This document shows positions 6,690 through 43,500 of a DNA stretch of 64,000 bases, piece by piece. The position numbers were made by a program, and so were the translations under genes. The notes below the pieces were generated by a model, which ran no database searches, was not told the origin of the DNA, and saw nothing but the letters and a program-made list of their open reading frames with translations. This stretch comes from Schmidtea polychroa (taxonomy: Eukaryota). The first letter of the stretch is position 1. Every line of letters begins with the position of its first letter. The DNA is taken from contig CM097885.1 in assembly GCA_044892525.1 (NCBI GenBank), positions 36,086,001-36,150,000 on the forward strand, in the 5' to 3' direction.

Positions 6690-9600
6690 TTATTGTAAAT
6701 CTGTGTGAATAACTGATTGATTTTGAGTTTTATCATTGCCAATTGTAGCTGAAATCAAGCTGATAGTATCTGATGATTTCGTCATAAGATAATCATCAAT
6801 TGTTCGTTCTGTACAATTAGCTACAGGTCAAATTAACACGTATATATTTCCCATTAAAGTAAATATACCAATAAATCTGATGAATGGTCTAACATCGCCT
6901 TCATTTGCGACTTTGAGCAACTTAAAATACTTTTCCCGATCTTCATTGAGAATGATACTCGGTGGATAATTAGCTCGCATCAGTATGAAATTCATCAATA
7001 AACGAGCTGTTCTCCCATTTCCATCTTGAAATGGATGAAGAAATACAAATCTCCAATGAGATAATGCAGCTAATTCGATTGGATGTAATTCCTTACTATC
7101 CTCACTGTTCAACCATTCAAGAAATTGTGACATCAAATTAGGTATTTCCTCACTCGGAGGAGGTGTGTGATCAGCAATAAAGACTTGCTTGTTTCGGAAA
7201 CGACCCGCTTCAGATATGTCAACAAAACCCAAAACTCTTTTATGTAATTCAAGAATATGCTCAATTAGAATGTTTTGTTTGCCTTCGTTTAATAAACTAT
7301 TGAGATATTTTAATGCTAAATCAATTCCCATGACCTAAAATTATAAATAACAAAAATAAATCACGAGAAATTGAAGTTAACAAAGACTAAAAAATTTTTA
7401 AAAGTTGAGATTAAAAAACAAAGAGGATATAAAACACAAGCTAGAGAATATTTTGAATAAAATTAATTTTTGGTTATGGTTAAAAATTAAGCGTTATCAA
7501 AAAAATATTTAATTTCTGTATGTTTTTCTAGGTCCATCAGTATTGTTCTTGTTGATTATATCTTCAACTGGAATTCCTAAACATTTTATTGATGTTTTAG
7601 GATATTTTATGAAATGCATATATTTATAAGTTATGTTGAAATTCATCAAATTCTTAGATTTTTGTTCATTAGATTGAAGTTTTCATTAAAATTCGAAACA
7701 TGAAAACCCTATCGCCAACCGCTTCTCACTGTCTTTCCCAGTGAATTCCGATTGATATTATCTCCATTCAACTCAATGATTGGACCACTAAAAGAATGTT
7801 TCATGTCACACCTCATCGATTTTATCTTCTCTGTATTCACTAAAGTTACTGCTATATACATTGGTTCATCAGACCTTGGAAGAACATCTGGATTCAAAAA
7901 TCAACAATAAACTGCATTGCGAAATGCTAAAATTTCCACAAAAGTAATTGTCGAGGTTCAACAGTTCACTGTTGAGAATGAAAAAATGAATGTAAGTTTT
8001 TTATTCAAAATTTAACAAAATGAGAGTAACAAAATTCAGAGAAATCGATAATAATCCAACAAAGAAAGATTCAAAACTAACGAGATGAGAAGAATCAAAT
8101 TATAAACTCACACAGACGCGACAAAAAACCAAGAAAAAAAGAGTACAAACGCTGAAAAAAAGCATATAGGGAATATTCATTCAAATACTACGAAATCCTA
8201 CAGAAGTAGGCAAAATCAAGGAATTAATAATGGAAAAAATTCTACCAATTGCATAATAACACTTTGAAACACTTTATTATCCATCCCCGCCCAGATATAG
8301 CTGGGTATCTAATTACCATTCATGAGCAGATTTTCAAATGATCTCAAAAAGTTTTTCTTGGACGATTCGATTTAAAATTTCAAACGGTAATCTGACTATA
8401 TATTAATATTATAACTATTTTATCTATTATACTTAAACTTAATAATATAAGCATGCCTATCCTTATAATTCCTGTAACGTAAGCGTTAATAATAAGAATC
8501 AACATTTTTATTCGGATGTTTGTCGTTATTATTTTTTATAATGTGATTGTTGCTATTTTATTATTTTTACATGTTAACAAAAATTATAATAACCAAAAAA
8601 TTATTATAAATAATTAAAATAATTATATACACCAATTATATTGTGCTAGTATACGGTTATGTTCCTTAGGAAATTATTATTCGCGAGAAGTGAGTGCACC
8701 TCTGTACACTATAGTCGTCACTTGGCTGCCATTACTCTACGCGAACCTTGGAAGATCTGTTTATCCTTCATGTTATGGTGTGAAACCATATTGAAATTTG
8801 CTCAAAAAGTGTCCACAAATTTGATTAGGTTGTGTCGGTATATAGAGCCTGATTTGCTGTGCATTGCATTGATTCAGTAAAACAAAATTGAATTACTTTT
8901 AATTCTGATTAATTTTGAATTTCAATATTTGGCGATTTTGATGGCAATTTTTCGTAATTTATGATTTATTTTCTAGATTTTATATTTTATTTAATTTTGC
9001 CGCCTTGATGTTGTTTTAATTTTCATTTCTTTTAATTTTTATATTATTTCATTTTGATTTTTTGCAAATTTAGCTATTAAAATAGCATTTTTTAGTCAGC
9101 TTCGATTAATTAAAACTGGCGGCCATGATGGATTTCGCTATTTTTATAGAATTTTTTTTTATTCTAGCTTTTTGTGTAACTTTTATTTTTAATTCATTTT
9201 CTGATGATGTTCTGTGGAAATCTTCTTCATTTCAATTCCTAACTTTTCTTATCGCCATTAATTAAATTTGTTGTCTTCTGTTGTTTCAGTATATTTTGTG
9301 CTTTGTTTTATTTTACCTTAGTTTTGGATTTATCATTTTGGGGTTAAGTAAATTCTATCTGGTTGTGTTTAATCGATGTTTTGGCGTGTTTCTAGTTAAA
9401 CTCGACTTAATGTTGTGCCTGCTTGCTTTTTTCCAACATATTCCGCCCCGTTACATAAACGTGGGACGAAAATCAGATTTTACCCAACAATTTTTTTATC
9501 AAAAGTAATAATTTCAAAAATTCCTAATATATCTATTAATTTATTTCAAATTCAAATTTATAATTATATATTGATTTATTTTTAAATTAATAATTAATAA

Positions 9601-40500: not shown

Positions 40501-43500
40501 ACTGTCTTCACTGATCAATCTAGAATCTAGATAAAAAATATAAATCCAGCAATTTGTATTAGACTCAAAATCCATATTTAAAGATTTACAAAACTAAATC
40601 ATTCAAATTTTTTAAGAAGATTCTAAAGTTCATTTAATATTATAGTACTTACTTTTAGTACTTTCAGAGTCATAAATTTCGATTATTAACTTTTCTAAAT
40701 TTGGCTAAAATTCTATTTTTTTAACTCTATGTTATGCACTGTTCAATATTATAGTATATTATATTTACCGCGTAAACAAATTTAACAAAACATATCAAGA
40801 AATAGATTACACGTTTTTATTAGTTAATAATTAAAATTTTTATAAATAATAAATGTTGTTAATTGTATTTAAAAAAATTGTTTTATATAAAAAACGAATG
40901 GAGAATGTGTACACTGTAAGGAAAATAATAGATGATTTCATTGTTGATTTCCGCGATCGTCCCGCGGTAGACCTAGATAAAAAACAGTTTTAGTTAAATC
41001 ATTGAAAATTGCCTAAATTCTGATTAATCGGATCGGTATCGGAATCGGTAAAAAAACGTTACAGATTATCTGGATTCCGGAATCAGTAAAAAATCGAAAT
41101 CGGTCCACCCCTAGTACTTATATACGAAAGCGGCCTGTTGTTTGAAAAAATGTATTCGAAAATTTGTTTTACGTAAATTGGCTTGCACGTCTAAGGCGTA
41201 ATTGTGCATCTTGTATAAAATGTTACTTTCCAAACATCGGCAAATTAATTTCATCAATAAAGGCCATTACATGTAAAAACTATTCGAACAAAGAGATTTT
41301 TAAACAAATACGAAGAATTCCCGATGTGATGGTTTAAAGTTGGAGTAGTTGGCTTAAAACCGCGTTTCTTTACTTTGAAAATTGAAACAGTGTACGAGAT
41401 TTAATTACTCTGGTAAAGAACGATGGAATTTTATATGAAAGGGCGAAGGAAGCGTGTTTTAAGGAAGGTATATATCAAGATTTGATTTTAATACACCAAT
41501 GTTACTCGAATATTGTTAAATTTTTTTGGATTCAATCGAGGATGGAAATGCAAGCACCGAATATAACTGGAATTTAATAAACATCCTTCATTTCCTCGAG
41601 GATCCAGTCAGAATAACTGAATATATACGTGGATCGATTAAATAACTCCGATTTTACAAAGATCATTGAATTTGCTAATGATAAACTTTCTCTGAAAGAC
41701 TATGCTGATATAAAAAAATACCCCTGCACGTCTATTGCAGTTGAGAGAATTTTTTCAATGCTAAAATCTATGTTAAGAAGTGACCATAATTTCAAAACCG
41801 AAAAGGTTTCAGCTTATTTTTTTGCGTATTATAAAAACGATTACTGTTTAAATCTAAGACACATCAGAAGAATTTCTTTGTAATTAATATTACAAACTTT
41901 ATTTGTATAAAACCATTTATTTATTTACTTGAGATTGAGCCATGATTGAATTTGAAACATTGGATAATTGTTCAACACTTCGGCTAATAAACATTGGAGT
42001 TGTGTTGATCTTTTTAAGAGCTCGATTGAATAGAATATCATATCCATAAGTTAGCAAGTTTATCTTTTTATCGCTTTGGGGAAATTTCATAAACATATCT
42101 TGGTGTTCCTCTTCTGTCATTTCATGATTTACAGAAATTAAATCGTTGATTTCCGATCGTTTTGAAAAACTTCCATTAATAATTTGCAACGATCTTGCTG
42201 AGCCACGATCACATGGACAAGTTCCACTGCTGAAAAGACATCTCTTCGCCATATTGCTCATTGAAATACGACATATCAAACATTCATTATCTTCCATATT
42301 TCACTAAGGCCAAAAATTCAAATCAAAATTATAAATCAGTTCTTTAAAACCACAATCCCAGAAAAATTGAATATCATATCATATCCATAAGTCAGCAACA
42401 CTATAAAAAACCGATACAATCATAAAACTGAGTAAAACCAAATAAAACCCACAATAACTTTGACTAAATTCCACAATTGTCCGCGTCTGTGTGCGCACAC
42501 AATTCAAATCAACAAAGTAAAAAGCGCACACAGACGCGCGACCCGATAATCAACCAATTACGATGATTACATTTTTTTATTTGACAGGTACAAGTTTTAT
42601 AAACAACTTCACTATACTAATTATTATAATCAATTATATTAAAAGACTTCTATATTTAAAATATTTTAAATTTAAAAGTTACGTTTGAAAAAAATGCATA
42701 ATTCTGGTCACCCTAATTATTACTCTCCTTCGAATTTTTCCAATCTGGCGCGTTTTTTTTCATTTCTTGTTACTAGAGTTTTGTCGTTGATATTTCTAAT
42801 AAACGCAGTTTTATCGCAGTTAATAACTTGATCAAGGCGGTTTTCATCTCCTGTACTGGATCTGCACCGGATCCGCATAACTCTATACCGCTGTTTTATA
42901 AATATTTAATTATTCAATTTATCTTTTCATTTCAAAAATCTGTCCTAAATATTGCTCCGTTTTTAGCTGTTAAAATAATTATTGATTAAATTATGCAAAA
43001 TTTCATGAATTATAATTTGGGTTTAAAAAGGGTTCCAAGTTCAATTAATTATGTATCTAATTCTTTACATATGTTGTACTGATATTTTTTATTAATTTTT
43101 ACAAATTCTGTAAATCTCATTCAAAGTTACTGATGATGTTTATAAATGATTAAGTTAAAAATTTCTGTTAGATTTATTTTTGATAATTTTTTTATTATAA
43201 TTTTTTTATTATTGGTCAATAATTACATTTTTAGACTTCAGAAATGTTGCAAAACGTATATATTTTTTAATTTACAATAAATTGAGAACTGATAATTTTA
43301 ATATGAATTATGTGTGTTGGGGTTTGACGGAACAAGGAAAAAATTAAAAAATTAAAAGCACAAAAACTAAGTGCAAATCAATAAAAACATCAAAATTCAA
43401 AAATAATAATTACAAATTAAAAATTAATAGTAAACATTTTGCGGGGAAACTTGTATGGGTGGGTGGATGCCAAATTATAATATGAATTCAAATATAATAG

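What the first reader, a model, noticed from the sequence alone, without database searches (positions are those of the whole stretch)
8109..42538. Recurrent GC-rich motif CGCGTCTGTGTG(CGC) about 200-240 bp upstream of short minus-strand ORFs at three unrelated loci
Seen: CACACAGACGCG at 8109-8120, GTGCGCACACAGACGCG at 32009-32025, its exact 17-bp reverse complement at 42482-42498, and GCGCACACAGACGCG at 42524-42538. All sit in very AT-rich DNA whose flanks show no evident homology. On the minus strand each locus continues with a T/G-rich leader and then an ORF: 7897-7709 (62 aa, TTG start, decayed continuation), 31831-31652 (59 aa) and 42297-41917 (126 aa). Inference: a shared promoter or transcription-factor site driving small accessory genes in different DNA transposons, possibly a convergently used antisense accessory-gene module.
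Basis: partly seen in the sequence, partly recalled or inferred. Interest (0 to 1): 0.7.

Follow-up and report, generated by a model that had tools for sequence, protein, structure and literature searches.

The report
Recurring GC-rich motif in transposon debris
A 12-17 base GC-rich word really does recur in three unrelated stretches of an AT-rich animal genome and looks like a protein-binding site near gene starts, but only one of the three places is shown to be a transposon with a small extra reading frame, and nothing yet shows that it is transcribed.

Summary
The motif is real: four exact copies of CGCGTCTGTGTG at three loci; no GC-rich 12-mer recurs at three loci in 40 of 40 shuffles, and the flanks are unrelated. 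The genome is an AT-rich animal, probably a planarian. Locus 1 lies in an intron of host FICD; neither it nor locus 2 has detectable transposon ends or transposase. The three ORFs are unrelated and have no homologue; ORFs 1 and 2 are of a length that follows 6-10% of random positions. Best reading (0.45): a host transcription-factor site near transcription starts, suggested by a T/G-rich tract after each copy and by a perfect motif pair inside an 8-10% decayed element. Rivals: hAT transposase binding site (0.2), micro-foldback remnant (0.12), old homology or incidental ORFs (0.2). It is not the published planarian Initiator. No genome, expression or copy data were available. The scan had not noted it on other DNA. 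Interest 0.3.

The parts
8109..8120 (-). Motif copy 1, CGCGTCTGTGTG (12 bp; continues AGT, not CGC)
7709..7897 (-). ORF1, 62 aa, TTG start, 38% GC, no homologue; lies in the last detected intron of FICD
6828..18264 (-). Host FICD-type gene (context): Fic-domain exon 6828-7334, middle exon in 15677-15964 (assigned from recalled FICD sequence), TPR exon 17884-18264
   Evidence: (Fic E=5.7e-24; TPR below cut-off)
32009..32025 (-). Motif copy 2, CGCGTCTGTGTGCGCAC (17 bp)
31998..32002 (.). CCAAT, 6 bp from motif copy 2 (post hoc; 9% of positions have one within 20 bp)
31905..31912 (-). TTGTTTAA, core of the published planarian Initiator, about 100 bp downstream of copy 2 (chance 0.067 per 200 bp)
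31652..31831 (-). ORF2, 59 aa, ATG start, 25% GC (background), ends in a 19-bp tandem duplication, no homologue
39683..42715 (+). Decayed, internally deleted hAT transposon, 3033 bp with its nested insert; 11-bp TIRs TAGGGTGACCA at 39683-39693 and 42705-42715; flanking 8-mers match at 6 of 8
39768..40007 (+). Transposase remnant, residues 136-215 of relative P0002 (44% identity); the first 135 residues are missing
40008..41113 (.). Nested 1106-bp non-coding element with 14-bp TIRs (12 of 14) and 8-bp TSD (7 of 8), splitting the transposase
41113..41838 (+). Transposase remnant, residues 213-453 of P0002 (44% identity, E=3e-52), 6 in-frame stops in 242 codons; the frame runs on to a stop at 41883
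41917..42297 (-). ORF3, 126 aa, ATG start, five Cys in the first 29 residues, tail-to-tail with the transposase, two AATAAA within 30 nt of its stop; no homologue
42366..42398 (.). 33-bp stretch of the ORF3 leader that duplicates 42025-42057 inside ORF3 (30 of 33)
42482..42498 (+). Motif copy 3b, CGCGTCTGTGTGCGCAC, pointing towards the right TIR; 42488-42501 is a perfect 14-bp palindrome
42524..42538 (-). Motif copy 3a, CGCGTCTGTGTGCGC, pointing towards ORF3; perfect 15-bp inverted repeat with 3b
42554..42558 (.). CCAAT, 15 bp upstream of copy 3a (post hoc)

Best explanation
CGCGTCTGTGTG(CGC) is the binding site of a host sequence-specific DNA-binding protein that acts near transcription starts. 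Unrelated repeats or gene relics have picked it up separately because it gives them transcription. Shown: the word recurs in unrelated flanks, a T/G-rich tract follows each minus-strand copy, and at locus 3 a pair of sites lies inside a hAT right end ahead of a convergent 126-aa ORF. Inferred: a factor binds it, transcription starts at or just after the site and runs through a 180-230 nt leader, and at locus 3 this makes the ORF3 message from the hAT's right end towards the transposase. ORF1 and ORF2 may be first exons, relics or chance frames; they need not be transposon genes.
For: Recurrence beyond chance with unrelated flanks. T+G on the minus strand rises from 0.56 to 0.70-0.74 at copy 2 and from 0.52 to 0.66-0.74 at copy 3a, starting at the motif and fading near the ORF start; at copy 1 it is 0.62-0.76 from -150 to +100 (the first bin includes the motif itself). 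An ORF follows at a like distance at 3 of 3 loci (single chances about 0.10, 0.065, 0.011; post hoc). CCAAT within 20 bp at 2 of 3 loci (0.093 each); CCAAT boxes are enriched in planarian promoters (PMC10558129, passage). In the hAT, 6 stops in 322 transposase codons imply about 8-10% decay, at which both 15-mers stay unchanged with probability 0.03-0.05 and ORF3 stays stop-free with probability 0.07-0.13 (simulation). The hAT without its insert, plus the missing 135 codons, comes to about 2.3 kb, close to the 2350-bp contig of relative P0002, which leaves room for a second gene in relatives (inference only).
Against: No transcription, chromatin or copy-number data were obtained. The motif is absent from the one host promoter region in the window (FICD, which has the published Initiator core at 18621) and from 3 of 3 other coding transposons with both ends in the window (piggyBac 19591-23459; 43936-45880; 10027-10930). 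It is not among the planarian motifs that I could read as text. None of the 3 ORFs has a homologue or domain; ORF2 has background GC; ORF1 needs a TTG start; ORF3 folds poorly (pLDDT 40, single sequence) and part of its leader is a copy of its own interior. The decay argument is weakened by selection of the finding for its perfect matches and intact ORF, and the stops may predate this insertion. Little accessible chromatin was found in planarian transposons (PMC10558129, passage).
Confidence: 0.45

Rival explanations
1. The motif is a subterminal binding site for the transposase of a CGGBP-type hAT. Diverged families or their miniature derivatives share it because their BED domains read the same word; loci 1 and 2 are remnants that have lost their ends, and the ORFs are incidental.
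For: Locus 3 has two inverted copies 177-233 bp from a hAT end. CGGBP-type domains prefer CGG- or GCGC-containing words, and the motifs of four hAT proteins match their own subterminal regions (PMC8097297, section 3 and passages). The label 'CGGBP-type' for this transposase is from my recall of its motifs, not from a call.
Against: No TIR at a like distance from copies 1 and 2. The 85 bp left of the left end hold other repeats (TGCATAATT), also present next to the right TIR, which are the likelier transposase sites. It does not explain the T/G tract. A 12-17 bp site in one or two copies is unlike the usual short multi-copy subterminal repeats (own knowledge).
Confidence: 0.2
2. The 57-bp inverted pair is a tiny foldback element or terminal hairpin (micro-MITE or Helitron-type end) that inserted into the hAT; copies 1 and 2 are single surviving arms.
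For: Perfect 15-bp arms, -21.6 kcal/mol, z = -6.7 against 200 shuffles; a 14-bp palindrome within copy 3b.
Against: No target-site duplication around 42482-42538; copies 1 and 2 share neither spacer nor second arm; no Rfam match in the window; the inverted pair was not found in metagenome contigs (weak).
Confidence: 0.12
3. The three loci are very old relics of one repeat or gene family, or the motif has some role unrelated to transcription, and ORFs 1-3 are chance frames.
For: ORFs of 59-62 aa are common (42 ATG ORFs of 59 aa or more in the window); none has a homologue; other unexplained stop-free frames over 125 codons exist in the window.
Against: No DNA or protein similarity among the loci while 12-17 bp are identical, which itself needs selection on the word; pure chance for the word is rejected.
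Confidence: 0.2

Closest known systems
C. elegans m1m2 motif pairs in CERP2/CELE2 MITEs, bound by HIM-17 (PMC9757741, passages)
   Same: Motif with no match to known factors, carried in transposon DNA, partly as an oppositely oriented pair; proposed promoter role.
   Different: There two different motifs sit in the inverted repeats of two related MITE families and drive host germline genes, with ChIP and reporter proof; here one motif, in unrelated flanks, inside a hAT body, with no functional data.
hAT transposons with CGGBP-type DNA-binding domains (PMC8097297, section 3 and passages)
   Same: Short TIRs, 8-bp TSD, transposase with hAT C-terminal motif; GC-rich GCGC-containing word in the subterminal region.
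   Different: A second, convergent ORF inside the right end is not part of that description; the motif also occurs at two loci with no hAT features.
Accessory genes of DNA transposons: VANC of VANDAL (PMC6719617, passages), TET/JBP in fungal hAT7 (PMC12730594, passages); MURB of MuDR and KolX of Kolobok (recalled)
   Same: A second gene inside the TIRs; MURB and KolX are convergent on the transposase (recalled).
   Different: Those genes are conserved across copies and have known or recognisable products; ORF3 is a single-copy observation without homologue. In the hAT7 examples read, the extra gene is upstream and in the same direction.
Putative planarian Initiator TTTGTTTAAATA (PMC10558129, table S3)
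   Same: Sequence word at planarian transcription starts.
   Different: No sequence similarity to the motif; its core is found at FICD's upstream end and downstream of copy 2 only.

Membership tests
hAT DNA transposon (element 39683-42715) | Short terminal inverted repeats | tested here: met
   11 of 11 bases TAGGGTGACCA at both ends
hAT DNA transposon (element 39683-42715) | 8-bp target-site duplication | tested here: inconclusive
   flanking 8-mers agree at 6 of 8
hAT DNA transposon (element 39683-42715) | Transposase with hAT C-terminal dimerisation region | tested here: met
   PF05699 best hit but below cut-off (E=0.016 window, 0.0059 P0002; DUF659 0.063); 44% identity to P0002 over 323 aligned residues
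hAT DNA transposon (element 39683-42715) | N-terminal BED zinc finger | tested here: inconclusive
   deleted in the window copy; weak C2H2-type hits at residues 13-69 of P0002
DNA-transposon accessory gene (VANC, MURB, KolX kind) | ORF lies between the TIRs of a DNA transposon | tested here: inconclusive
   met for ORF3; no ends found for ORF1 and ORF2 (1 of 3)
DNA-transposon accessory gene (VANC, MURB, KolX kind) | Homologues in related elements or databases | tested here: not met
   none for ORF3, ORF2 or ORF1 (Atlas only); lineage-restricted genes would also give this
DNA-transposon accessory gene (VANC, MURB, KolX kind) | Kept under purifying selection across copies and expressed | not testable with these tools
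   no genome held; no read or contig table obtained
TE-derived promoter motif (CERP2/CELE2 m1m2 kind) | Motif sits in the inverted repeats of a high-copy MITE family | tested here: not met
   the motif is internal to a hAT, and flanks of the three loci are unrelated
TE-derived promoter motif (CERP2/CELE2 m1m2 kind) | Enriched at open promoters, bound by a factor, needed for expression | not testable with these tools
   needs ATAC, CAGE, ChIP or reporter data
hAT subterminal transposase-binding site | Lies in the subterminal region of the element | tested here: inconclusive
   2 of 4 copies (both at locus 3, right end); the left end is cut 85 bp from the TIR
hAT subterminal transposase-binding site | Bound by the element's BED/Hermes domain | not testable with these tools
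   needs a binding assay
Planarian Initiator (Poulet et al. 2023) | Matches TTTGTTTAAATA matrix | tested here: not met
   consensus and matrix rows 1-9 read in table S3; no similarity to the motif

The most novel reading that the evidence does not exclude
Several unrelated DNA transposon families of a planarian have each acquired the same host-factor site to run a small orphan accessory gene from their 3' end towards the transposase, a shared regulatory module for so far unknown anti-silencing or helper proteins in animal DNA transposons.
Probability: 0.1. Interest if true: 0.7.

Novelty: new member of a known kind. Interest (0 to 1): 0.3.

Why it matters
Planarian binding motifs are mostly borrowed from other species and not verified by experiment, and no enriched factor motif was found for stem-cell or constitutive genes (PMC10558129, passages). 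A long, information-rich GC word that repeats keep re-acquiring would point to an unassigned factor that licenses transcription of selfish DNA, and it is easy to test with existing ATAC and RNA data. An animal hAT with a convergent orphan gene would extend the short list of DNA-transposon accessory genes. On present evidence this rests on three loci and one transposon copy.

Tried and rejected
Own genome: not held, so no genome-wide count. Sequencing runs: 21 listed for 41000-43500, no RNA holder listed; this is no evidence on expression. The one attempt to lay contigs gave no table, so the shares are not used. ORF3: no hit among 5 candidates (lengths 69-221 only); 1 hit among 1.84 billion representatives, a furin-like Cys repeat protein, rejected as a Cys-spacing match; Atlas best 0.89 to unnamed viral clusters and 0.86-0.87 to RING clusters, under the 0.9 line, and ORF3 has only five Cys, too few for a RING; one PHROG of unknown function at E=0.009; nothing in PDB under E=0.2, NCBIfam or viral contigs; structure model too poor for a fold search. 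ORF2: none among 39 candidates of longer length; near-length relatives not searched. ORF1: Atlas best 0.77; no HMMER search of the large collection was left for it. Six-frame read-through scans of the three loci against Pfam: 1 weak hit in 18 frames and nothing above cut-off at the loci; a Merlin-like transposase relic at about 33000-33400 that I read by eye was not confirmed (0 of 3 frames). Motif in viral contigs: 35 of 35 loci have 43-70% GC, taken as chance. Inverted pair in metagenome contigs: 0. Relatives of the hAT with flanks: none in viral, prokaryote-genome or metagenome contigs. Rfam: 0 matches. Planarian Initiator: rejected. Host FICD promoter or exon: rejected for locus 1, which is intronic, about 10 kb from the gene's 5' end. 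Earlier scan notes: nothing alike (one irrelevant bacterial row). Recalled look-alikes (metal response element TGCRCNC, CAMTA CGCG box, MluI box, Smad GTCT) fit only parts of the word and were not tested.
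Full report
Setting. The window is 28% GC animal DNA full of transposon debris: a host FICD-type gene on the minus strand (Fic E=5.7e-24), a piggyBac transposase (E=1.5e-74), hAT pieces and (AAT)n runs. No genome is held. An earlier scan note on the same genome names the planarian Burro retroelement (e1-7879936); the AT content and an Initiator core upstream of FICD agree with a planarian, but I did not confirm the species.

The observation. The 12-mer is the only one with at least 50% GC at three or more loci, and 0 of 40 shuffles hold any such word. 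A matrix from the four sites finds no fifth good site: the four score 28.5-34.8, the best independent site 14.8 (14194). Flanks are unrelated in 6 of 6 comparisons, and the ORFs are unrelated in 3 of 3. CpG is not depleted (observed/expected 0.99), so the word is not unusually mutable. The ORF part is weaker: an ORF of 59 aa or more begins 100-300 bp after 6.5-10% of random positions; one of 126 aa after about 1%.

Locus 3. An element with 11-bp TIRs TAGGGTGACCA spans 39683-42715, with flanking 8-mers alike at 6 of 8. Its transposase matches an unnamed 454-aa protein, P0002, at 44% in two pieces, 39768-40007 and 41113-41838; the first 135 residues are deleted, and a 1106-bp nested element with its own TIRs and 8-bp duplication splits the gene. 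P0002 and the window piece have the hAT dimerisation family among their best Pfam hits, below cut-off. ORF3 (126 aa) lies tail-to-tail with the transposase, 33 bp from the end of its frame. The motif pair lies 177-233 bp inside the right TIR: 3a points to ORF3, 3b points outward; they form a perfect 15-bp inverted repeat (z = -6.7). The transposase has 6 stops in 322 codons, about 8-10% decay; under neutral decay both 15-mers would stay unchanged in 3-5% of cases and ORF3 stop-free in 7-13%. This hints at selection, but the finding was chosen for these features and the stops may be older than this copy. ORF3 has no homologue, only sub-threshold Atlas leads to small viral and RING-like clusters, and a poor model. 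A 33-bp piece of its leader duplicates its interior.

Loci 1 and 2. Copy 1 is in the last detected FICD intron, on FICD's strand. Copy 2 is intergenic or in an unseen intron. A search for inverted ends within 6 kb downstream and 3 kb upstream found no convincing pair at either, while it did find the locus 3 ends. Read-through Pfam scans found no transposase. ORF1 is 38% GC but needs TTG; ORF2 is 25% GC, like background. So these two loci are not shown to be transposons, nor convergent on anything.

Promoter-like signs. T+G on the minus strand rises at the motif at loci 2 and 3 and stays high for 150-250 bp; at locus 1 it brackets the motif. CCAAT lies within 20 bp at 2 of 3 loci (0.093 each by chance), and an Initiator core about 100 bp downstream at 1 of 3 (0.067 per 200 bp). 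These were looked for after the fact. Against: the motif is missing from the FICD upstream region and from 3 of 3 other coding transposons with both ends in the window.

Mechanism. Most likely (0.45) a host factor binds the word and starts transcription just downstream; at locus 3 this would give an ORF3 transcript running inward from the right end. Binding, start site and protein are all inferred. Rivals: transposase binding site (0.2), micro-foldback remnant (0.12), old homology or chance ORFs (0.2).

Literature. Nine searches. The motif strings occur in 101 papers; I saw the listing of 40, none on flatworms by title, most likely primers. PMC10558129: passages, section 10, and parts 1, 44 and 45 of the supplementary archive; its Initiator is TTTGTTTAAATA, a different word; its motif logos are figures that I could not see. 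PMC11398382: passages and a text search of 6 supplementary files, with one primer hit; its motif set is shown as logos and could hold this word. PMC12660999, 10.1101/2023.12.22.572568 and 10.64898/2026.01.28.702291: passages only; preprint supplements were closed and may bear on this. PMC8097297: passages and section 3. PMC9757741, PMC12730594, PMC6719617: passages. Repbase and Dfam entries for planarian hAT families could not be consulted; the family and any second ORF may already be described there. MURB, KolX, Merlin, hATm, Tigger and Polinton labels are recalled and come from no call unless a Pfam hit is cited.

Verdict. Observation confirmed; interpretation partly supported, at 1 of 3 loci. 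A real, unassigned, probably functional DNA word and one hAT relic with a convergent orphan ORF: a new member of a known kind (transposon-borne binding site) on present evidence. Interest 0.3; the bold reading, a shared accessory-gene module in unrelated transposons, has probability 0.1 and would merit 0.7. Expression, copy number and conservation across copies remain untested.

Noticed in passing
window 18610-18622 (-): TTTGTTTTAATA, a match to the published planarian Initiator core, upstream of the first detected FICD exons; a T+G rise starts there too.
   Followed up: partly
window 43936-45880: Element with 14-bp TIRs TAGGGTGGAGCTTA and a 333-codon frame (44577-45578) that looks like an internally deleted transposase (hATm/Spy-like by recall); no Pfam hit above cut-off.
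   Followed up: no
window 19591-23459: piggyBac with TTAA-flanked TIRs and a 420-codon transposase frame; a 135-codon basic frame at 22339-22746 lies inside it on the opposite strand, upstream of the transposase, without Pfam hit.
   Followed up: no
window 54289-54660 (+) and 55476-55787 (-): A 123-codon Yippee/Mis18 zinc-binding frame (E=1.2e-06) near a frame that by recall resembles the C-terminus of a Polinton integrase; possibly a Polinton-borne Yippee gene.
   Followed up: no
window 1-2450: Decayed minus-strand frames that by recall resemble Polinton capsid and neighbouring genes; Pfam gave nothing for 158-325.
   Followed up: no
window 10027-10930: 903-bp element with 26-bp perfect TIRs and a CENP-B-type N-terminal frame (E=7.4e-07), inside the FICD intron.
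   Followed up: partly
window 33000-33400 (-): Frames that by eye resemble a decayed Merlin/ISXO2-type transposase about 1 kb upstream of motif copy 2; not confirmed by Pfam.
   Followed up: partly
window 14194-14210 (+): Best further near-match to the motif (CGCGTCTGCGAG, 2 mismatches) inside a GC-rich coding-like stretch; within chance.
   Followed up: partly
window 8290-8305: Short palindrome CCCAGATATAGCTGGG about 170 bp upstream of motif copy 1, the same distance as the TIR from copy 3a; no partner end found.
   Followed up: partly
window 26740-28140: Very AT-rich (12-21% GC) degenerate satellite-like block with units of about 400-560 bp.
   Followed up: no
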